32,000 bases of DNA from Candidatus Blochmanniella floridana (GTDB lineage Bacteria; Pseudomonadota; Gammaproteobacteria; Enterobacterales; Enterobacteriaceae): contig BX248583.1 in NCBI GenBank assembly GCA_000043285.1, positions 330,001-362,000 of the forward strand, written 5' to 3'. The translations under genes and the position numbers were made by a program. The notes under the pieces were generated by a model. The model saw only the letters and a list, made by a program, of their open reading frames with translations, did not search any database and was not told where the DNA came from. Positions 2,391 through 31,370 of this stretch are shown here, piece by piece. The first letter of the stretch is position 1. Each line of letters begins with the position of its first letter.

Positions 2391-4016
2391 ATGAATTATA
2401 AGGTATTTGCTCGTAAATGGCGTCCAAAGAAATTTTGTGAAGTTGTAGGACAATTACATGTTGTTAAAGCGATTATACATAGTTTGAATTTAAATAGAAT
2501 GCATCATGCTTATATATTCACAGGTACAAGAGGATCTGGAAAAACTACTATTGCTCGATTGTTTGCGAAAGGATTAAATTGTGAGACACAAATAACATCA
2601 GATGTATGTGGAAGTTGTAAAAATTGTTCAGATATTGAATCTGGATGTTTTATTGATTTAATAGAAATAGATGCAGCTTCTAAATCTAAAGTTGAGGATA
2701 CTAGGTCATTTTTAGATAATGTGCAATATAGCCCATCTCAAGGTAAATTTAAAGTATATTTAATTGATGAAGTACATATGTTATCCAGGCATAGTTTTAA
2801 CGCTTTATTAAAAACATTAGAAGAACCTCCAAAACATGTTAAATTTATTTTAGTGACGACTGAATATCAAAAATTACCAGAAACTATTTTATCTAGATGT
2901 TTACAATTTTATTTCAAACCTTTAAATATTATTCAAATTGTTACACAACTTAAATATATATGTAATCAAGAAAATATTAATATAGATACAGAAAATTCAT
3001 TAGAATTCTTAGCTTATGCAGCAAGAGGTAGTATTCGAGATGCGTTAAATTTATTAGAGCAAGCTATGATATTAGGGAAAAACAATATAACTATAGATGT
3101 TATTAATAGCATGCTTGGTTTATTACATATTGAACATGCGTTATCTTTAATTGAAAGTTTAACAAATGGAAATATTAATAAAATTATGAATCAAATTGAT
3201 AATTATTCAATTTTAGGAATTAATTGGGATTATCTTTTTGAAGAAATACTTATTGTATTACAAAAAATAGCAATTTATCAATTTTCACCACACTCTTTAA
3301 AAAATCAAATAAGTATTGTTGAAATAAAAGATATTGAAAAGCGTATGCATAAATTAAGTGATTTTATATCTCCTGAAAATGTACAATTATATTATCAAAT
3401 ATTTTTATTAGGTCGACGAGAATTGTCTTATGCTCCTAGTCATCGTATAGGTATGGAAATGACTATGTTAAGAGCTCTAGCGTTTTGTCCGGTGAACTTA
3501 GATTCAAAAAGTGAGCAATATTACAATTCAGAGAATACTTCAAATAAAGAAGAAGTATGCAAAAATTTTTCAAAAAAAAACGTAACTCAATTAATAAACA
3601 TAAATAAATATACTGATTCAATTTCTGATAAGAAACAACAAATACAAAATAATTTTAATAATGTGACTCATACAGAAAAAATTAAAAATATTCAAGATCT
3701 TACTAATGTATCTGGTTCAAAATTAGAAAAGTTACAATTATCACTTACTAATCAAGCTGTGATAAATAACAAAATAATTTCTTCTAATTCTAAAATTAGA
3801 CCTCAATATCCTATATCTCATGTTACTTCTGAAATATTAGATGCTCGTAATAAACTTATTAAATATCAAAGAGATTACAAGCAATCTATGTTAACTAAAA
3901 CAAAATCTAATATTAATACACAAGATGAACAGGGGTTAGAAGATATATTGAGGCGATTTACTAATATTGATGTCAAAATCTCTAAAGATGGTGATATCCA
4001 TAATAAAAAAAAATGA
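2391..4016 (+). CDS. dnaX: DNA polymerase III subunit tau/gamma, frame-0 part (541 aa, gamma-like product as encoded)
   Basis: Contains the P-loop GTRGSGKTT, the four-Cys Zn module C..CGSCKNC, DEVHML, the SRC motif ILSRCLQF and the domain III segment YYQIFLLGRRELSYAPSHRIGMEMTMLRALAF. The frame ends ...HNKKK then TGA (4014-4016), directly after an A9 run (4005-4013). Confidence 0.93.
   Translation: MNYKVFARKWRPKKFCEVVGQLHVVKAIIHSLNLNRMHHAYIFTGTRGSGKTTIARLFAKGLNCETQITSDVCGSCKNCSDIESGCFIDLIEIDAASKSKVEDTRSFLDNVQYSPSQGKFKVYLIDEVHMLSRHSFNALLKTLEEPPKHVKFILVTTEYQKLPETILSRCLQFYFKPLNIIQIVTQLKYICNQENINIDTENSLEFLAYAARGSIRDALNLLEQAMILGKNNITIDVINSMLGLLHIEHALSLIESLTNGNINKIMNQIDNYSILGINWDYLFEEILIVLQKIAIYQFSPHSLKNQISIVEIKDIEKRMHKLSDFISPENVQLYYQIFLLGRRELSYAPSHRIGMEMTMLRALAFCPVNLDSKSEQYYNSENTSNKEEVCKNFSKKNVTQLININKYTDSISDKKQQIQNNFNNVTHTEKIKNIQDLTNVSGSKLEKLQLSLTNQAVINNKIISSNSKIRPQYPISHVTSEILDARNKLIKYQRDYKQSMLTKTKSNINTQDEQGLEDILRRFTNIDVKISKDGDIHNKKK
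4005..4013 (+). repeat. A9 homopolymer at the dnaX frame junction (candidate slippage / frameshift site)
   Basis: Nine consecutive A counted directly (4005-4013), followed by TGA and six more A (4016-4021). Frame 0 stops here. The +1 frame stays open on both sides of the run. Confidence 0.9.
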
Positions 4017-4515
4017 AAAAATCTTTGCAATACAAACTCAATCTAATAATATCAATATTATAGATTCGTTTTTATATTGTGAAATTACTAATACTCTTAA
4101 TGTTATTATATATAATATATTACGGAAAGCATTACAAAATGATTCTTGGATATTACAAATATATCAATTATCATTATCACAACAATCAAAACGATTCCTT
4201 TTAAATACTTGGTGTGAGACTATTAATAATGATCAAATATATTTATATTTAAGACATAATTATCAGCATATGTATTCTAAAGAATTACATAGTCTCTTAC
4301 AAAAAGAATTAAGCAACAATTTTGAAAAATTGATTGTAGTACATATTATTAAAAATAATAATTGTTTAAAAAAAACACCTATTGAATATATTTATATGTT
4401 ATATAAGGATAAAATACTACAATTAAGTCAAGAATTATTAAAAGATCCATATATTAAATTAGTTCAATCTCTTTTTAATGCAAAATTTGATGCAAAAAGT
4501 ATTGAGTTAATTTAA
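4005..4515 (+). CDS. dnaX: dnaX continuation in the +1 frame: tau C-terminal domain (domain V, alpha-binding). Not an independent gene
   Basis: The +1 frame ORF (open 3967..4515) encodes ...ALQNDSWILQIYQLSLSQQSKRFLLNTWCE..LYLRHNYQHM..TPIEYIYMLYKDKILQLSQELLKDPYIKLVQSLFNAKFDAKSIELI. This aligns with the extreme C-terminus of E. coli tau (DPWAAQVSQLSLPKLVEQVALNAWKEE..CLHLRSSQRHL..TPLEWRQAIYEEKLAQARESIIADNNIQTLRRFFDAELDEESIRPI). There is no plausible own RBS or start; the track 'start' at 3967 is a TTG inside dnaX frame 0. Confidence 0.85.
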
Positions 4516-4621
4516 TTAATTTATTTTATTTGTATTTTATATGATTTATAATTTTTATATACATATTGGATTGTATATCACACATGAATATTAATATAAA
4601 TTTCTTGATAATATAATATAT

Positions 4622-13640: not shown

Positions 13641-14675
13641 TTATTTATTATCATAACAATTACAACATAACATTTCTGTTAATAGTTCAAAGTTTGAACT
13701 AGATAAATATACATGATTTTTATGGTATTGTAATTCCATGAGTACTAATAATTCTAAAATTTTATTTAATTGCGTTAAATTTAATCGACGTATTACTTGA
13801 GATAACAGCATACGGCGATATTGTGTATATACGTTATATTTTTTAAATAAAGTGTATAACATTTTTCCGTGAAATATTATATTATATTTTATTTGAATTA
13901 TAACTAGCATTTCTCGTTGAATTTTATATAATAAAGTTTGCAAATTATCATTTGTATATTTTAATTGTTCTAAAATGCGATTTGCACGTTTCTTTTTACC
14001 TAATAGAATTGATTCTATCCAATGATTGACATTAAAACAGGCTGAATCAGTTATGATGTTTTTTAACCGATCAAAACTGATTTTTTTATCAGGATAAATT
14101 AAAGATAAGTGCTGTAATATTTGTTGTAATAAAATGATATTACCTTCGTAATAATAACATAATAATTGGCAAGCTAAGTTTTCTAAAGTTAAATTCATTA
14201 GTTGAGATTGTTTTTTTACCCATTTTTCTAATCTCGTATATTCAAGAGTATTGCAATTAACCAATATGCCAGTTTTATCAAATAGCTTTATCCATGTCTG
14301 ATATTGCGTCATAGGCAATGATGTATGTATCAACAAAATAAATAATAATTTGTTATATGTTAAAGTAGATATTAATGATGGTATGTTTTTATCGAAATAA
14401 GTAGAAGGATAATTTTTTGGAAACTGTAGAGATAATATTTGTTGCGTTGAAAATAAATGTGTTGTTTGACATAGTTGAAAAACTTTATCCCAGTCAAAAC
14501 AAACACTTGATCCAATACGAAAATGATCAATGGATAATGATTGTTCCTTTATTGTATTTAAGATATTTATATGACAGTCTTGTATTAAGTAAAAATCATT
14601 ACCAAATAGTATATAAATGAATTTTGTTTTTTTTTTTAATTCTAGAATTAATTGTTCTGGATATATCCAATTCAT
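13641..14675 (-). CDS. holA: DNA polymerase III subunit delta
   Basis: MNWIYPEQL...YILFGND..L and the central CYYYEGNIILLQQILQHLSLIYPD (E. coli CYCYEGNLLALAQALERLSLLWPD). 344 aa versus 343 in E. coli. Sits in the syntenic position upstream of lptE-leuS. Confidence 0.9.
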   Translation of the reverse strand: MNWIYPEQLILELKKKTKFIYILFGNDFYLIQDCHINILNTIKEQSLSIDHFRIGSSVCFDWDKVFQLCQTTHLFSTQQILSLQFPKNYPSTYFDKNIPSLISTLTYNKLLFILLIHTSLPMTQYQTWIKLFDKTGILVNCNTLEYTRLEKWVKKQSQLMNLTLENLACQLLCYYYEGNIILLQQILQHLSLIYPDKKISFDRLKNIITDSACFNVNHWIESILLGKKKRANRILEQLKYTNDNLQTLLYKIQREMLVIIQIKYNIIFHGKMLYTLFKKYNVYTQYRRMLLSQVIRRLNLTQLNKILELLVLMELQYHKNHVYLSSSNFELLTEMLCCNCYDNK

Positions 14676-14752: not shown

Positions 14753-15364
14753 TTATAGTCGTGTTAAAAATTGATATACTATTTTTTGAGCTGCATCACG
14801 GTACATATCTTCAAGAATTTCATTTTCCTGTACAGTATTAGATAAATTTTCTTCAGGATTTCTAATAAAAGTTCGATATACTTGTATTATCATAGGATGT
14901 TGATTATTTTTATTTGCAATACTATATGTTGCTTGTACTCTTAAATTGATTTGATATTCAGATTCTGTTCCATCTTCAAATACAGAAACAATTATATGTT
15001 TTGTGGATATACTTATAATATCTAAATGTGGAATATTTTTAATATCTAATGTAACTGGAATATGATCATTATCTTCAATAACATTTATACAATTTAAATA
15101 TAGTTCATTTTTTATAGATTTAGTTATTGAATGAAATGGATCATAGCTATGTAATGATATCGTTAATTGTTTGATGTTAGCGGTATTATCTAGTTTATTA
15201 TAAAATATATTTGGAGATAATTGATACCCACATCCTGTGATCATTAATAATATATAAGTGTTTTGAATAATGGAGAACAGTATTTTTTTATATGAAAATA
15301 TGAAAAATTCATTTAGTAATGAAATTAATGATTTTATTTGGAATATAAATAATTTTATGTACAT
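14753..15364 (-). CDS. lptE: LPS-assembly lipoprotein LptE (RlpB); start codon uncertain
   Basis: Lipobox ..LLMITGCG (Cys codon at 15230-15232). C-terminal similarity to E. coli LptE (..AEYQM/SEYQI.., VFRSFF/VYRTFI, EMYDRAAEQL/DMYRDAAQKI). Syntenic position directly after leuS. The only in-frame ATG upstream of the lipobox, other than the Met four residues before the Cys, is at 15364, which lies 56 nt inside leuS. Confidence 0.8.
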   Translation of the reverse strand: MYIKLFIFQIKSLISLLNEFFIFSYKKILFSIIQNTYILLMITGCGYQLSPNIFYNKLDNTANIKQLTISLHSYDPFHSITKSIKNELYLNCINVIEDNDHIPVTLDIKNIPHLDIISISTKHIIVSVFEDGTESEYQINLRVQATYSIANKNNQHPMIIQVYRTFIRNPEENLSNTVQENEILEDMYRDAAQKIVYQFLTRL

Positions 15365-17912
15365 ACTTTGATTCTAAATTTTTATCTTGGTAAATGGCTT
15401 GTTTTGCGATTTCATGAATTGTATTTTTGTCACTATTTATGGGTACAAATATTTTCTTTTTCTTTTTTCCATTAATTTGAACGATAATGAGTATTTCTTG
15501 AGTTTGTATTGCTTGAAGATCAGGGGTAGGCCATGTAGTATCATCAATAGTATTTGTATAACCTAATTCTTTCCATAAAATATAACTAATATGTGGAGTA
15601 AAAGGATATAATAGTTTGACAATTATGGATAATGCTTCGTGTAATACTGATCGATCTTGAGTATTATTAATTGGAAAAATATCTTGTATATCATTAAACA
15701 ATTTCATAATAGCTGCTAAAGCAGTATTAAAGGATTGTCGACGATCAATATCATCAGTAACTTTAATGATTGTTTCATGTACTTTTTGTCTAATAATTTT
15801 GTGTTTATTTTCTAATTTGTACATATTAAGTTGATGAATTAAACCATTCTGAATATGTTGATAAGTTATATTCCATAATCTTTTCAGAAAACGGAGAGCG
15901 CCTTCAATTCCAGATTCTTTCCATTCTAATGTAGAATGTGCTGGTGCAGCAAACATTATAAAAAATCGTACAGCATCTGCTCCATATTTTTGAATCATTG
16001 CATTAGGATCAATACCATTGTTTTTAGATTTAGACATTTTACATAGTCCTGCATAAATCACATTATTGCCATCAGCATCAATAGATTTAATTATATGGCC
16101 CATTTTATCTCGTGTGGATATCACTTTGTTAGGAGAGACCCAATTTTTTTGGCCATCATTTGATATATAATAAAACGAATCTGCTAATATCATCCCTTGA
16201 CATAATAATCGTATTGCTGGTTCATTTGATTGTATTAATCCTATATCCCTCATTAATTTATGATAAAAACGAAAATACATTAAATGCATAGTAGCATGTT
16301 CAATACCGCCTATATATTGATCAATTGGTAACCAATAATTAGCAGCATCGGATTGCAACATACCATCATGATAATGAGGACAAGTATAACGAGCATAATA
16401 CCAAGAAGATTCCATAAAAGTATCAAAGGTATCGGTATCGCGAATGACATCTTGATTTTTATAAGTAGTATGAGTCCAATTAAAATTTTTACTTAAGATA
16501 TTATTTTCATTGTTTTTTGTATATATTATTTCTGGAAGAATTACAGGTAATTCAGATTTTGGAACTGGTTGAATAATTCCATTTTTTAATTTAATCATTG
16601 GGATTGGCACTCCCCAATAACGTTGTCTTGATACCCCCCAGTCTTGTAAATGATAAAAAATTTTAGTTTTAGCTATTTTCAGATCAATTAATTTTTTAGA
16701 AATGTAATTAATGGCAGTATGAGATGTCAAATCATCAAAATTATCAGAATTAAATAATATTCCTGGTTCAATCATGGCTTGGTTTGTAATATTTGGTAAT
16801 TCTCCATCTGCATATTTAATAACAGGTTTGATAGGTAAATCATATTGATGTGCAAATTCCCAATCATGTTGATCATGAGCCGGACATGATGCAATTGCTC
16901 CTTGTCCATCAAATTCGAGTGGAGTTATAAAATTAGCTACCCAAATAGGCAATTTAGTAAAAGTAATAGGATGTACCGCATAAAGATTAGTAAATATACC
17001 TTTTTTCTTGTGACAAATAAATTGCTTATTATGTAATTGTATAGATATAGTATTATAAATACTGATAAAATTAGCTAAATCAGGATTAATTTTAGCTATT
17101 TGCAATGTAATAGGATGATCTACTGAAATTGTTAAATAGCTAATTCCCATAAAAGTATCTAATCTTGCTATATATACAGTAATAGTAGTAATATTACTAT
17201 TTAATATTTTAAAAATAACATTAGTACCTGTTGATTGGCCAATCCAATTCCGTTGCATAGTTTTAACTTGTTCAGGCCAATATTGTAATTGATTTAGTCC
17301 ATTTAACAATTGATCTGCATAATGAGTTATCTTAATAAACCATTGAGGGATCTTTTTATACTGTATTTTAGTATGACAACGCCAACAACCACCATTAATA
17401 ACTTGTTCATTTGCTAATACTGTATTATGGTATGGGCACCAATTAACTAAAGTAGTTTTTCTATATACCAATCCTTTTTCATATAATATAATAAAAAACC
17501 ATTGTTCCCATCGGTAATATTGCGGATCATTGGTAATTAACTCTCTCTTCCAATCATAAGCAAATCCTAATGACTTTAATTGTTGTTTCATATATTGAAT
17601 GTTGGAATATGTCCAATCTGATGGATTTTTTTTATGTATAATTGCCGCCTGTTCTGCTGGTAATCCAAAAGCATCCCATCCAATAGGTTGCAAGACATTT
17701 TTACCTAACATACGTTGATATCTAGAAATTACATCTCCGATAGTATAATTTCTAACATGTCCCATGTGTAAATTTCCAGATGGATATGGAAGCATAGATA
17801 AACAATAAAATTTTTGTTTGTTTTTATCCTCTGTAACTGAAAATGTTTGATTATCATTCCAATGTTGTTGAACAATTCGTTCAATTTGATGTGGAAAATA
17901 TAATTTTTTCAT
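15309..17912 (-). CDS. leuS: Leucine--tRNA ligase
   Basis: Contains HMGH, KMSKS, WGVSRQRYWGVPIP and ETDTFDTFMESSWYYARY. 867 aa, collinear with E. coli LeuRS. Confidence 0.97.
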   Translation of the reverse strand: MKKLYFPHQIERIVQQHWNDNQTFSVTEDKNKQKFYCLSMLPYPSGNLHMGHVRNYTIGDVISRYQRMLGKNVLQPIGWDAFGLPAEQAAIIHKKNPSDWTYSNIQYMKQQLKSLGFAYDWKRELITNDPQYYRWEQWFFIILYEKGLVYRKTTLVNWCPYHNTVLANEQVINGGCWRCHTKIQYKKIPQWFIKITHYADQLLNGLNQLQYWPEQVKTMQRNWIGQSTGTNVIFKILNSNITTITVYIARLDTFMGISYLTISVDHPITLQIAKINPDLANFISIYNTISIQLHNKQFICHKKKGIFTNLYAVHPITFTKLPIWVANFITPLEFDGQGAIASCPAHDQHDWEFAHQYDLPIKPVIKYADGELPNITNQAMIEPGILFNSDNFDDLTSHTAINYISKKLIDLKIAKTKIFYHLQDWGVSRQRYWGVPIPMIKLKNGIIQPVPKSELPVILPEIIYTKNNENNILSKNFNWTHTTYKNQDVIRDTDTFDTFMESSWYYARYTCPHYHDGMLQSDAANYWLPIDQYIGGIEHATMHLMYFRFYHKLMRDIGLIQSNEPAIRLLCQGMILADSFYYISNDGQKNWVSPNKVISTRDKMGHIIKSIDADGNNVIYAGLCKMSKSKNNGIDPNAMIQKYGADAVRFFIMFAAPAHSTLEWKESGIEGALRFLKRLWNITYQHIQNGLIHQLNMYKLENKHKIIRQKVHETIIKVTDDIDRRQSFNTALAAIMKLFNDIQDIFPINNTQDRSVLHEALSIIVKLLYPFTPHISYILWKELGYTNTIDDTTWPTPDLQAIQTQEILIIVQINGKKKKKIFVPINSDKNTIHEIAKQAIYQDKNLESKYVHKIIYIPNKIINFITK

Positions 17913-20602: not shown

Positions 20603-21064
20603 CTAAAGAAAACAACATGTTTTATATCCAAGTGTACGAATTATATTTAGTTCCATTGCGTTCATTAATTCAGCATCTTCATCACATATATGATCATAAC
20701 CTAATAAATGTAATGATCCATGGATAATCATATGGGCCCAATGAACATCAGAGAATATATTATTTTTTCTATTTTCATATTCTATAATTTGTTTACAAAT
20801 TACTATGTCTCCTAATAATGAAGTTTGTATCTCTGATGGCGGCTCAAAAGGAAAAGATAAAACATTAGTTGGATATTTTTTACCTAAATAATACCAATTT
20901 AAATATAACATCTCTTGAATATCTACTATGCGAATAGTTAATTCTATTTTTTTTTTAGATGAAAAAAATATTTTTTTTATCCATAATTTAATTTTATTAT
21001 TAGCAGGTATTCCTTGTGTATTTGCACATACTAATTGTAGATTGAGAATCACTCTGCTTACCAT
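20603..21064 (-). CDS. ybeY: Endoribonuclease YbeY (16S rRNA 3'-end maturation)
   Basis: PTNVLSFPFE and the zinc motif HGSLHLLGYDH. 153 aa versus 155 in E. coli. Syntenic between ybeZ and corC. Confidence 0.94.
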   Translation of the reverse strand: MVSRVILNLQLVCANTQGIPANNKIKLWIKKIFFSSKKKIELTIRIVDIQEMLYLNWYYLGKKYPTNVLSFPFEPPSEIQTSLLGDIVICKQIIEYENRKNNIFSDVHWAHMIIHGSLHLLGYDHICDEDAELMNAMELNIIRTLGYKTCCFL

Positions 21065-29723: not shown

Positions 29724-31370
29724 ATGCAAAATAATTTATTTCAAGTAAAGAAAAGTATTATTAATGAGACTAAACTTATCGATCAGTATTATAATTTATC
29801 TCCTGATCCTTATAATAATAAAGAACATAAAGTCTTTTTTGGAACATCCGGTCATAGAGGCAGTTCTTATCAATATAGTTTTAATGAAGCTCATGTATTC
29901 GCAATTAGTCAGTCTATAGTACAAATACGCACATTGTATGGTATTACTGGTCCATGTTATGTAGCAAAAGATACACATACACTTTCTGAACCAGCTTTTA
30001 TATCTGTATTAGAAGTATTAACGGCAAATTCTATTAATGTCATTATAGAAAAAAATGATCTATATACTCCTACTCCAGTTATTTCTAATGCTATCATTAA
30101 TTATAATAGACATAGATATCATAATAATCAATCTAAAGCTGATGGTATTATAGTAACATCATCTCATAACCCCCCTGAAGATGGGGGTATTAAGTATAGT
30201 TCGATTTTTGGAGGACCAGCTGAAATTGATATAACTTATTTAATTGAAAAATATGCTAATAGGTTTTTATTAAATAATCTACGAACAGTAAATAAAATAA
30301 CACTTAACCACGCTTGGAGAAGTGGATATATACATCCGCAAGATTTAGTACAAAATTATGTACAAAATTTGTCTACAATTATTAATATGAAAGCAATACA
30401 GAAATCTGGTTTAAAAATAGGAGTAGATCCGTTAAGTGGGTCAAGTATAAATTGTTGGTATGATATTGCTCAATATTATCAATTAAATTTAACTGTAATA
30501 AATTCGAAAATTGATCGCACTTTTAGTTTTATGAACATAGATTATGATGGTCGTATTCGTATAAATTGTACATCAGAATTAACTTTATCAAAAGTGTTAA
30601 GTTCATCAAAAAAATTTGATCTATTTTTTATAAATGATCCAGATTGTGATAGACATGGCATTATTACTAAAGGCGGGTTAATTCAGTCTAATTATTATTT
30701 TCCAATTGTTATAAATTATCTTTTCCATAATCGAGATTTTTGGAAAAAAAAAATATTATCTGTTGGGAAAACAAATGTATCTAGTATGAGTATTGATCAA
30801 GTAGCCAATAATTTAAATTGTCAATTATTAACGACTCCAGTGGGTTTTAAATGGTTTACACAAGGTTTATTACATAGTAAATTAGGTTTCGCTGGGGAAG
30901 ACAGCTCAGGAGCTTCTTTTTTAGATCAGCGCTGTATGCCATGGTCTACTGATAAAGATGGATTTATTATGTGTTTAATATCTGCAGAAATTCTGGCTGT
31001 TACTGATCATACATTACAAGATCATCATATTCAGTTCAATAAAAACTTGAATTGTACTTTTAATTATAATCAAACTTATCTTGTTATTAATCACTCTCAA
31101 AAAAAATCTATTATTAATACATTATTTAATCAAATTCATATGAATGAATTAGTAGGAGATCCTATTATTAAAGTTGAAAATATAAAACCATTAAATAAAT
31201 TTATATCTATGGATGGATTAAAAATTGTTACTCGTAATGGATGGATAGCTGGTAGATTATCAGGAACAGAATTGGTATATAAAATTTATTGTGAAAGTTT
31301 TTTGAGTTCCGATCATCGATTAAAAATGGAACAAAAAATGATTAGATGTATATATCAAATAATTAATTAG
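29724..31370 (+). CDS. pgm: Phosphoglucomutase (alpha-D-glucose 1,6-bisphosphate dependent)
   Basis: FGTSGHRGS, GPCYV.KDTH.LSEPAFISVLEVL, catalytic-Ser loop TSSHNPPEDGGIKY, metal loop NDPDCDRHG, GEDSSGASF, PWSTDKDG and KIYCESF. 548 aa versus 546 in E. coli. Confidence 0.95.
   Translation: MQNNLFQVKKSIINETKLIDQYYNLSPDPYNNKEHKVFFGTSGHRGSSYQYSFNEAHVFAISQSIVQIRTLYGITGPCYVAKDTHTLSEPAFISVLEVLTANSINVIIEKNDLYTPTPVISNAIINYNRHRYHNNQSKADGIIVTSSHNPPEDGGIKYSSIFGGPAEIDITYLIEKYANRFLLNNLRTVNKITLNHAWRSGYIHPQDLVQNYVQNLSTIINMKAIQKSGLKIGVDPLSGSSINCWYDIAQYYQLNLTVINSKIDRTFSFMNIDYDGRIRINCTSELTLSKVLSSSKKFDLFFINDPDCDRHGIITKGGLIQSNYYFPIVINYLFHNRDFWKKKILSVGKTNVSSMSIDQVANNLNCQLLTTPVGFKWFTQGLLHSKLGFAGEDSSGASFLDQRCMPWSTDKDGFIMCLISAEILAVTDHTLQDHHIQFNKNLNCTFNYNQTYLVINHSQKKSIINTLFNQIHMNELVGDPIIKVENIKPLNKFISMDGLKIVTRNGWIAGRLSGTELVYKIYCESFLSSDHRLKMEQKMIRCIYQIIN

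What the first reader, a model, noticed from the sequence alone, without database searches (positions are those of the whole stretch)
2391..4515. dnaX is encoded in two frames joined at an A9 run: the genomic frame yields a gamma-like protein, and full-length tau requires slippage or a +1 shift
Seen: frame 0 (from 2391) encodes clamp-loader domains I-III and runs ...DGDIHNKKK into TGA (4014-4016), immediately after nine A (4005-4013). The +1 frame is open across the run to 4515. From the run onward it encodes a sequence that aligns with the last ~150 residues of E. coli tau (QVSQLSL / QIYQLSL; CLHLRSSQRHL / LYLRHNYQHM; TPLEWRQAIYEEKL / TPIEYIYMLYKDKI; RRFFDAELDEESIRPI / QSLFNAKFDAKSIELI). That region is domain V, which binds the Pol III alpha subunit and is absent from gamma. 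An mRNA carrying A8 or A11 instead of A9 joins the frames to give ...HNKK(K)NEKIFAIQ... A +1 shift of peptidyl-tRNA-Lys at AAA-UGA-A, which resembles prfB, would do the same. A -1 shift gives only a short dead-end tail. Established: E. coli makes gamma from dnaX by a -1 frameshift at A-AAA-AAG. Thermus thermophilus dnaX uses transcriptional slippage on a run of nine A. Blochmannia and Buchnera are reported to rescue frameshifted genes through polymerase slippage at long poly(A) tracts. Inference: the polarity here is inverted relative to E. coli and Thermus. The DNA-encoded frame gives the short dispensable form, and the essential tau form would depend on a non-standard decoding event. The tau:gamma ratio would then be set by slippage frequency. 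The E. coli slippery heptamer is not present at the homologous position (here ACT AAA ACA AAA TCT, about 35 codons upstream).
Basis: partly seen in the sequence, partly recalled or inferred. Interest (0 to 1): 0.8.

Follow-up and report, generated by a model that had tools for sequence, protein, structure and literature searches.

The report
Two-frame dnaX rescued at poly(A) run
In the carpenter-ant symbiont Blochmannia floridanus the essential DNA-replication gene dnaX is split between two reading frames at a run of nine A's, so the full-length tau protein needs a slip at that run; this is real and conserved in related symbionts, but it was already published for this genome in 2010.

Summary
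Frame 0 (2391-4016) encodes DnaX domains I-III and ends at TGA directly after A9 (4005-4013). The +1 frame stays open to 4515 and encodes tau domain V (Pfam PF12170, E=5.8e-23).

The window is Ca. Blochmannia floridanus; the 541-aa ORF is CAD83372.1. Williams & Wernegreen 2010 (PMC3017870) reported this same poly(A) frameshift in B. floridanus and B. vafer and proposed rescue by transcriptional slippage. Antonov et al. 2013 described dnaX genes in which tau needs recoding as a class. The finding is therefore already known.

New here:
- All 12 lineages of the floridanus/vafer clade are truncated at the homologous site.
- The 10 with DNA (window plus 9 Logan assemblies) carry an A9-A12 run there.
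- Domain V is intact out of frame in all 10: 0 stops against 9-21 in the other frames, with a non-synonymous deficit.
- The offset differs: 4 lineages need -1/+2 nt and 6 need +1/-2 nt.
- The permitted recoding window shrinks to 8 nt inside the run.
- No E. coli-type frameshift stimulators and no separate start codon are present.

This excludes an artefact or a decaying gene, argues against a prfB-like +1 shift, and favours RNA-polymerase slippage. Ribosomal slippage on the run is not excluded.

The parts
2391..4016 (+). dnaX frame-0 ORF, 541 aa: clamp-loader domains I-III plus a poorly conserved linker, ending at TGA. Identical to CAD83372.1, 'DNA polymerase III subunit gamma', of Ca. Blochmannia floridanus.
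3894..3908 (+). ACT AAA ACA AAA TCT (codons 502-506). This region aligns with the E. coli A_AAA_AAG slip site; the slippery heptamer is absent here.
   Evidence: no AAAAAAG anywhere in dnaX
4005..4013 (+). A9 run, the recoding site where the two frames must be joined. Ten related lineages with DNA have an A9-A12 run at the homologous position. It is the only positionally conserved A>=8 run in the gene.
4014..4016 (+). TGA stop of frame 0, directly after the run.
4015..4515 (+). +1-frame segment (frame open from 3952): a short linker, then tau domain V (the Pol III alpha-binding domain), ending at TAA 4513-4515.
   Evidence: (PF12170, E=5.8e-23)
3572..3580 (+). Second A9 run, in frame (codons 394-397, SKKN). 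It is not conserved in relatives. A slip here would give gamma-length products of about 397-405 aa, so it is probably incidental.

Best explanation
This is the dnaX gene of Ca. Blochmannia floridanus, and it is truly encoded in two frames.

Standard decoding of the genomic A9 template yields a 541-aa DnaX. It contains the ATPase clamp-loader domains I-III and the linker but lacks domain V, so by inference it cannot tether the Pol III alpha subunit.

Full-length tau (about 707 aa) is made only when the frame is restored inside the A9 run. The most likely route is RNA-polymerase slippage on the nine-base homopolymer. This produces a mixed mRNA population, and ordinary translation of the A11 (or A8) transcripts gives tau. 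Published slippage spectra in E. coli, Buchnera and Thermus are dominated by insertions, so A11 (...HNKKKNEK...) is inferred to be the main tau-encoding transcript. The tau:short-form ratio would be set by slippage frequency.

Shown here: the sequence anatomy; the homology; conservation of the out-of-frame arrangement across a clade; purifying selection on domain V; localisation of the recoding site to the run; and the absence of ribosomal-frameshift stimulators.

Inferred, not shown: that RNA polymerase rather than the ribosome makes the slip; the product ratio; and any function for the short form.

The confidence of 0.7 is for RNA-polymerase slippage specifically. Confidence that the gene undergoes functional recoding at the run is above 0.9.
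For: 1. Anatomy and homology.

2. Identity and prior report. The ORF is exactly CAD83372.1 of B. floridanus. Williams & Wernegreen 2010 describe the same poly(A) frameshift in B. floridanus and B. vafer, and an in-frame, T-interrupted tract in B. pennsylvanicus.

3. Not an artefact or a recent lesion.
- 12 orthologues at about 52-58% identity to B. floridanus end ...KKK*...KKKK*...TKKKQ* or (P0027, P0028) 5-6 residues after the Lys run, all at the same aligned place.
- All 10 with DNA (the window plus nine independent Logan assemblies) have an A9-A12 run there, followed by an intact out-of-frame domain V ORF.

4. Domain V is translated.
- It has 0 stops in its own frame against 9-21 in the other frames; the chance probability of staying open is about 1e-6 per lineage.
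- Four independent contrasts show a non-synonymous deficit: p=6e-4, 3.5e-3, 0.054 and 3.4e-3.
- Core residues shared with E. coli are conserved.

5. The site is the run. The window between the last stop in the domain V frame and the 0-frame stop is 8 nt, wholly inside the A10 run, in L082 and L083. It is 13-16 nt in L081, L085 and L087.

6. Favouring RNA polymerase slippage.
- Both offsets occur in one clade: 4 lineages need -1/+2 nt and 6 need +1/-2 nt. Mixed direction is the published criterion for transcriptional realignment.
- The run is never shorter than 9, the length at which bacterial RNA polymerase slips efficiently.
- There is no conserved SD-like element or downstream hairpin: downstream MFE is 0 to -7 kcal/mol. 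Enterobacterales dnaX controls have A_AAA_AAG, AGGGAG and hairpins of -21 to -29 kcal/mol.
Against: - There are no transcript or protein data for this gene. The 2010 authors also only inferred slippage.
- Traverse & Ochman 2017 found that slippage at A/T runs gives mostly single-base insertions and that deletions are rarely at homopolymers. B. floridanus needs +2 or -1 nt, not +1, so tau yield by this route may be low.
- A run of A's also allows perfect re-pairing of tRNA-Lys after -1 or -2 ribosomal shifts. L081 and L084 carry the exact E. coli heptamer A_AAA_AAG followed by TAA. A translational contribution is therefore not excluded.
- NG86 dN/dS for domain V is noisy: 0.28-0.91, with the highest values in comparisons involving B. 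floridanus. Domain V also evolves slightly faster relative to the ATPase core than in the in-frame clade, ratio 1.69 against 1.44.
- The A9 length in B. floridanus itself rests on a single genome assembly. No second assembly of this species could be retrieved here.
Confidence: 0.7

Rival explanations
1. The frame is restored during translation. The ribosome slips on the lysine A-run: a -2 or +1 shift in B. floridanus and a -1 shift in the other offset class. The adjacent 0-frame stop or slow decoding may help. The mRNA stays A9.
For: - The run allows perfect AAA re-pairing after -1 or -2 shifts.
- In B. floridanus, L082, L083 and L086 the 0-frame stop directly follows the run.
- L081 and L084 carry A_AAA_AAG TAA, the E. 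coli dnaX heptamer followed by a stop. This matches the reversed dnaX arrangement described.
Against: - There is no upstream SD-like element and no downstream hairpin, unlike the enterobacterial controls.
- Two opposite offsets in one clade would need two different ribosomal events. By the published heuristic, mixed direction indicates transcriptional realignment.
- A heptamer would be enough for -1 frameshifting, yet the run is always 9 or longer.
- In L088 and L089 the stop lies 16 nt after the run.
Confidence: 0.2
2. A prfB-like programmed +1 shift of peptidyl-tRNA-Lys at AAA-UGA-A.
For: In B. floridanus the run ends AAA TGA A, and domain V is in the +1 frame.
Against: - Six of ten related lineages have domain V in the other frame.
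- The stop is TAA in 8 of 10 lineages and lies up to 16 nt after the run.
- There is no SD-like element upstream.
- A +1 slip from AAA to AAU loses third-position pairing (read directly from the sequence).
Confidence: 0.04
3. DNA-level heterogeneity. Replication slippage keeps a mixture of A9 and in-frame alleles (A8 or A11) among the many genome copies of the symbiont, and tau comes from the in-frame minority.
For: - Homopolymers are indel hotspots in these genomes.
- Run length differs between lineages: A9, A10 and A12.
Against: - Eleven independent assemblies, counting B. vafer, all give an out-of-frame consensus.
- This was not tested directly here.
Confidence: 0.05
4. Sequencing or assembly error in homopolymer length. 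The real gene would be a simple in-frame dnaX.
For: Homopolymer lengths are error-prone, and B. floridanus rests on one assembly.
Against: - The same out-of-frame arrangement is present in B. vafer and in nine independent Logan assemblies.
- Random length errors would not produce 11 of 11 out of frame.
- The 2010 authors inferred the frameshift by comparing two genomes.
Confidence: 0.02
5. Either the tau C-terminus is decaying, with the frameshift as a first step of gene erosion, or the gene is split and domain V is translated separately from its own start codon.
For: - Genome erosion through homopolymer indels is common in these symbionts.
- Gene callers annotate a separate domain V ORF in the Logan contigs.
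- Domain V evolves slightly faster here than in the in-frame clade.
Against: - Domain V has no stops and shows a non-synonymous deficit in 10 lineages that are 20-40% divergent in the ATPase core.
- No conserved start codon or Shine-Dalgarno exists. In 6 of 10 lineages the first possible start lies 137-182 nt downstream, inside the conserved domain.
- By inference from the known role of tau, a free domain V could not link alpha to the clamp loader.
Confidence: 0.03

Closest known systems
The dnaX poly(A) frameshift of B. vafer and B. floridanus, reported by Williams & Wernegreen 2010 (BMC Genomics 11:687, PMC3017870)
   Same: The same gene, genome and site. The paper places the frameshift in a poly(A) tract downstream of the E. 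coli slip site, in the tau-exclusive region. It proposes transcriptional slippage as the rescue and notes that B. pennsylvanicus is in frame with an interrupted tract.
   Different: Nothing differs for the window itself.
Reversed-polarity dnaX genes: Antonov et al. 2013 (NAR 41:6514, PMC3711429), reviewed by Atkins et al. 2016 (PMC5009743)
   Same: dnaX is spread over two adjacent ORFs, tau needs recoding, the short-form stop is in the zero frame right after the site, and poly-A runs of 7-10 are involved.
   Different: - Those 17 genes all have a -1 frameshift at the DNA level, and the A10 cases align with the Thermus poly-A motif.
- The Blochmannia site lies about 39 codons downstream of the position aligned with the E. 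coli slip site.
- B. floridanus is offset the other way.
- Blochmannia is not named in that paper or in its held supplements.
Thermus thermophilus dnaX (transcriptional slippage at nine A)
   Same: A nine-base A run within dnaX, with RNA-polymerase slippage producing a mix of tau and short form.
   Different: In Thermus the genomic frame encodes tau and the slipped mRNAs give gamma. Here the genomic frame gives the short form, and the site lies further downstream in the gene.
E. coli dnaX -1 programmed ribosomal frameshift
   Same: The same gene gives two products that differ by the C-terminal tau-specific region.
   Different: The E. coli mechanism uses A_AAA_AAG, an upstream SD-like element and a downstream hairpin. 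All three are present in the Enterobacterales controls and absent here.
Citrobacter rodentium tssM1 (Gueguen et al. 2014, PMC4256274)
   Same: A prematurely interrupted gene with an A11 run a few bases before the stop. Transcriptional frameshifting gives a short and a full-length form, both forms are needed, and their ratio matters.
   Different: It is an unrelated protein (type VI secretion) and it has been shown experimentally. The Blochmannia case has not.

Membership tests
dnaX (DNA polymerase III gamma/tau) | N-terminal AAA+ clamp-loader domains I-III | tested here: met
   PF13177 E=3.7e-43, PF22608, PF12169; TIGR02397 dnaX_nterm scores 417.9 bits against a cut-off of 250
dnaX (DNA polymerase III gamma/tau) | C-terminal tau domain V (alpha-binding) | tested here: met
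   PF12170 E=5.8e-23, in the +1 frame. BLASTP to E. coli tau residues 516-643 gives E=2e-16.
Homopolymer frameshifts of insect endosymbionts rescued by polymerase slippage (Tamas et al. 2008; Wernegreen et al. 2010) | The frame break lies within an A or T run of about 9 or more, and the gene is otherwise intact | tested here: met
   A9 at 4005-4013, with both segments open. Relatives have A9-A12.
Homopolymer frameshifts of insect endosymbionts rescued by polymerase slippage (Tamas et al. 2008; Wernegreen et al. 2010) | Purifying selection persists downstream of the frameshift across species | tested here: met
   0 stops in 10 lineages; non-synonymous deficit with p=6e-4 to 0.054 in four contrasts; conserved motifs
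Homopolymer frameshifts of insect endosymbionts rescued by polymerase slippage (Tamas et al. 2008; Wernegreen et al. 2010) | Transcripts are heterogeneous in run length while the genomic DNA is homogeneous | not testable with these tools
   No RNA or read-level data were available. The two primary papers are not held in the library.
Reversed-polarity dnaX (Antonov et al. 2013) | Two adjacent ORFs; tau requires a frame change; the short-form stop is in the zero frame just after the site | tested here: met
   definition taken
Reversed-polarity dnaX (Antonov et al. 2013) | A -1 frameshift at the DNA level, at the poly-A position that aligns with the Thermus motif | tested here: not met
   B. floridanus has domain V in the +1 frame. 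The site lies about 39 codons after the position aligned with the E. coli slip site. Six related lineages do have the -1-type offset. Alignment to the Thermus motif itself was not tested.
E. coli-type dnaX -1 programmed ribosomal frameshift | A_AAA_AAG heptamer in frame | tested here: not met
   No AAAAAAG anywhere in B. floridanus dnaX. It is present in L081 and L084 only.
E. coli-type dnaX -1 programmed ribosomal frameshift | Upstream SD-like stimulator and downstream stem-loop | tested here: not met
   An SD-like motif occurs in 1 of 10 lineages. Downstream MFE is 0 to -7 kcal/mol (z from -1.65 to +1.05), against -21 to -29 kcal/mol with AGGGAG in six Enterobacterales controls.
prfB-type +1 programmed frameshift | A conserved shift codon plus in-frame stop, an SD-like element 3 nt upstream, and one conserved direction | tested here: not met
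   The direction differs among orthologues (4 against 6). Stop identity and distance from the run vary. There is no SD-like element.

The most novel reading that the evidence does not exclude
The out-of-frame state may be an actively maintained, programmed device rather than a tolerated lesion. After the E. coli-type -1 frameshift signal was lost, the floridanus/vafer clade of Blochmannia would use a conserved A>=9 run near the domain IV/V boundary to set the ratio of tau to a tau-lacking-domain-V form.

Support so far:
- All 12 sampled lineages are out of frame.
- The offset switched at least twice, between needing -1 nt and needing +1 nt, without an in-frame state being observed in any sampled lineage.
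- The run is the only positionally conserved homopolymer in a fast-evolving linker.

I found no report of this clade-wide pattern for dnaX in the searchable literature.
Probability: 0.3. Interest if true: 0.55.

Novelty: already known. Interest (0 to 1): 0.3.

Why it matters
Tau is the essential organiser of the replisome. A bacterium that can make it only through a decoding 'error' shows how far an essential function can depend on polymerase infidelity in a reduced, AT-rich genome. It also shows that apparent pseudogenes in such genomes should not be written off, and the public annotation still calls this gene 'subunit gamma'.

That point was made for this gene in 2010. That makes Blochmannia dnaX a good natural system for measuring how slippage frequency sets the stoichiometry of an essential protein complex.

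Tried and rejected
The loci later served as positive controls for the E. coli frameshift signal.
- The protein search with the joined linker plus domain V (342 aa) found only the self-hit, because that region diverges too fast for the word index.
- B. vafer DNA could not be retrieved: there is no exact gene record. Its offset class therefore rests on the 2010 paper and on its ...NIKKK* ending.
- Tamas et al. 2008 and Wernegreen et al. 2010 (MBE) are not held. Their content is cited only through papers that describe them.
- Blochmannia is not mentioned in Antonov 2013 or in its held supplements.
- A conserved gamma-producing role for the first A9 run (3572-3580) is rejected, because the run is not conserved in any relative.
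- Independent initiation of domain V is rejected, because no conserved start codon or Shine-Dalgarno exists.
- NG86 dN/dS is of limited use here because of AT bias and near-saturated synonymous sites. I relied on stop-codon counts and on binomial tests in independent contrasts instead.
- The absence of in-frame lineages is not statistically decisive. The number of independent state changes is small (at least 2), so roughly p = 0.02-0.2 under a naive equal-frequency model. That figure is my estimate, not a formal test.
Full report
**1. What is in the window**

- An ATG at 2391 opens a 541-codon frame that ends ...GAT ATC CAT AAT AAA AAA AAA TGA.
- The nine A's occupy 4005-4013 and the TGA occupies 4014-4016.
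- The +1 frame is open from 3952 to a TAA at 4513-4515.

Simulated transcripts behave as follows.

| Run length in mRNA | Product |
|---|---|
| A8 | 707 aa, ...HNKKNEKIFAIQ... |
| A11 | 708 aa, ...HNKKKNEK... |
| A7 or A10 | 16-residue dead-end tail |
| A12 | the truncated form with one extra Lys |

The homology claims also hold.
- Frame 0 carries the clamp-loader domains PF13177, PF22608 and PF12169.
- The +1 segment matches tau domain V (PF12170) at E=5.8e-23, well above Pfam's cut-off.
- The +1 segment also matches the last 130 positions of the NCBIfam gamma/tau model.
- The joined protein aligns with E. coli tau at both ends: 56.7% over 1-367, and 27.9% over 579-707 against 516-643 with E=2e-16.

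The domain V stretch has no stop in its own frame and 10 and 19 in the other two. Given the base composition, an open frame of that length has a chance probability of about 7.5e-7.

**2. Where it comes from, and that it is already published**

The 541-aa product is identical to CAD83372.1, 'DNA polymerase III subunit gamma' of Candidatus Blochmannia floridanus (705,557-bp genome). The neighbouring adk product is identical to CAD83373.1. The local gene order is lon, apt, dnaX, adk.

Williams & Wernegreen 2010 (BMC Genomics 11:687) state the following.
- dnaX is frameshifted in a poly(A) tract in B. vafer.
- The site lies downstream of the E. coli ribosomal slip site, in the tau-exclusive region.
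- Full-length tau is probably expressed 'at some level' through transcriptional slippage.
- B. pennsylvanicus is in frame, with the tract interrupted by two T.

The general idea of a dnaX gene in which the long product needs recoding was published by Antonov et al. 2013: 17 genes in 12 genera, most with poly-A runs. It is summarised in the review by Atkins et al. 2016. So the finding is correct but not new.

**3. Comparative evidence gathered here**

A protein search with the 541-aa ORF returned about 30 Blochmannia orthologues in two classes.
- Eighteen are full length, 662-698 aa, with PF12170.
- Twelve are truncated at 503-552 aa without it: B. floridanus, B. vafer and ten Logan assemblies.

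The truncated proteins all end at the same aligned place. Ten end ...KKK*...KKKK* or ...TKKKQ*; P0027 and P0028 run on 5-6 residues after the Lys run (...IKKNNKKTH*...IKKNTKKHY*).

I retrieved DNA for nine of the truncated Logan lineages and for two full-length ones. Every truncated locus has an A-run at the homologous site. The lengths across the window and the nine Logan loci are 9, 9, 9, 9, 9, 9, 10, 10, 10 and 12. Each run is followed by an intact domain V reading frame of about 160 codons that ends at the conserved C-terminus, in a different frame from the N-terminal part.

The offset is not uniform.
- In B. floridanus, L082, L083 and L086, domain V is in the +1 frame, so the mRNA needs one base fewer or two more.
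- In L081, L084, L085, L087, L088 and L089 it is in the other frame, so the mRNA needs one base more or two fewer.

Once joined at the run, all ten proteins align cleanly through domain V. Conserved motifs such as D.W..QI.QLSL, L..R and KTP.E are shared with the in-frame clade and with E. coli.

The junction run is the only A>=8 run in the gene whose position is conserved, at about residue 538 in every lineage. The in-frame loci L090 and L091 have no run there.

**4. Phylogeny**

I built a neighbour-joining tree on domains I-III.
- The twelve truncated lineages form one clade (bootstrap 87), sister to the in-frame clade (bootstrap 85).
- Inside the truncated clade, (L088, L089) groups with (L082, L083, L086) at 100, and the L081 group is supported at 100.
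- By parsimony the offset class therefore changed at least twice, yet none of the twelve lineages is in frame.

I regard this as suggestive of maintenance, not proof, because the number of independent events is small.

**5. Selection on domain V**

All ten frameshifted lineages have zero stops in the domain V frame against 9-21 in each of the other frames. The chance probability is about 1e-6 per lineage.

In four phylogenetically independent contrasts the share of non-synonymous differences falls below the neutral expectation: p=6e-4, 3.5e-3, 0.054 and 3.4e-3.

NG86 dN/dS values are as follows.

| Region | dN/dS |
|---|---|
| Domain V, frameshifted lineages | 0.28-0.91 |
| Domain V, in-frame control pair | 0.27 |
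| Domains I-III | 0.15-0.32 |
| Linker | 0.45-1.04 |

These estimates are noisy because synonymous sites are near saturation and the genomes are AT-biased.

Relative to the ATPase core, domain V evolves somewhat faster in the frameshifted clade than in the in-frame clade (ratio 1.69 against 1.44). That is mild relaxation, not loss of constraint. A decaying C-terminus is therefore excluded.

**6. Where and how the frame is restored**

The frame change must occur between the last stop in the domain V frame and the 0-frame stop.
- That window is 62 nt in B. floridanus.
- It is only 8 nt, entirely inside the A10 run, in L082 and L083.
- It is 13-16 nt in L081, L085 and L087.
- It always contains the run.

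Separate translation of domain V is not supported. No conserved start codon or Shine-Dalgarno sequence exists. In six of ten lineages the first possible start lies 137-182 nt downstream, inside the conserved domain.

E. coli-type frameshift stimulators are absent.
- Downstream folding energy is 0 to -7 kcal/mol (z from -1.65 to +1.05).
- An SD-like motif appears in only 1 of 10 lineages.
- Six free-living Enterobacterales loci fetched show A_AAA_AAG at codon 425-472, with AGGGAG-like motifs upstream and hairpins of -21 to -29 kcal/mol.
- B. floridanus dnaX contains no AAAAAAG at all.

Three features point to RNA-polymerase slippage.
- The only shared element is a homopolymer that is never shorter than 9. 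Bacterial RNA polymerase slips efficiently at that length.
- Both offsets occur among orthologues, which is the published criterion for transcriptional realignment rather than ribosomal frameshifting.

Published spectra show mainly insertions at A/T runs, in diminishing proportion with length. From that I infer that B. floridanus tau comes mostly from A11 transcripts, and that the +1-nt class of lineages should make proportionally more tau.

Ribosomal slippage on the lysine run is not excluded. It is the main rival, especially where the run reads A_AAA_AAG TAA (L081, L084).

**7. What the short product is**

E. coli K430, the gamma end, aligns near residue 500 of the B. floridanus protein. The junction at 539/540 aligns around E. 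coli residue 469, in a poorly conserved stretch. Domain V similarity begins at residue 579, matching E. coli residue 516.

The 541-aa product is therefore tau without domain V rather than a strict gamma. From my own knowledge of the E. coli domain map (domain IVa at about 430-498 binds DnaB, and domain V binds alpha), it may retain part of the DnaB-binding region. This was not tested here.

**8. Verdict**

- An artefact or a decaying gene is excluded by the comparative data.
- The mechanism is most likely RNA-polymerase slippage: about 0.7 for that specific mechanism and above 0.9 for functional recoding at the run.
- The finding is already known for this very genome, and the reversed arrangement is known as a class, so interest is modest.

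The added value here is the clade-wide conservation in an essential replication gene with switching offsets. I did not find this reported in the searchable literature.

Noticed in passing
window 3572-3580: A second A9 run inside dnaX, in frame (TCA AAA AAA AAC, residues 394-397), just after domain III. One extra A gives ...SKKKRNSINKHK* and one fewer gives ...SKKT*. Slippage here would therefore give gamma-length products, as in Thermus. The run is not conserved in any relative.
   Followed up: yes
L081 3042-3054; L084 3060-3072: Two related lineages read ATA AAA AAA AAG TAA. That is the exact E. coli dnaX slippery heptamer A_AAA_AAG followed directly by a stop, with domain V in the -1 frame. 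This is the textbook reversed -1 frameshift layout, but it lacks the SD-like element and the hairpin.
   Followed up: partly
window 14627-14637 (minus strand, holA 13641-14675): holA, the clamp-loader delta subunit, carries an in-frame A11 run on its coding strand at about codons 13-16, upstream of where the holA model match starts at residue 20. It is the longest homopolymer in the window.
   Followed up: no
window 20947-20956 (ybeY, minus strand) and 30744-30753 (pgm): In-frame A10 runs on the coding strand of ybeY and pgm. The window holds 35 A or T runs of 8 or more. ybeY is reported as frameshifted in B. turneri.
   Followed up: no
L090 around codon 476 of dnaX (in-frame clade): An in-frame A9 run (KQKKINK) lies near the position aligned with the E. 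coli gamma/tau slip site (about Bflo residue 496). This could be a Thermus-like way of making gamma in that lineage. It is absent in L091.
   Followed up: no
P0040 (Blochmannia of Polyrhachis turneri); P0039 and P0044 (Ca. Erwinia haradaeae): Other symbiont dnaX annotations are truncated at different places: 404, 393 and 478 aa. The 478-aa entry is named 'subunit tau, isoform gamma', while another E. haradaeae strain has a full 643-aa protein. dnaX truncation or frameshift may recur in reduced genomes.
   Followed up: no
window 4516-4621 and loci L081-L091: dnaX is followed directly by adk. From memory, the E. coli order is apt-dnaX-ybaB-recR-htpG-adk, so ybaB, recR and htpG are missing from this position in all the Blochmannia loci examined.
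   Followed up: no
window 14753-15364 and 15309-17912 (minus strand): The lptE and leuS ORFs overlap by 56 nt as listed. The LptE model match starts at residue 37, so the real lptE start is probably further downstream. This is not a frameshifted gene.
   Followed up: partly
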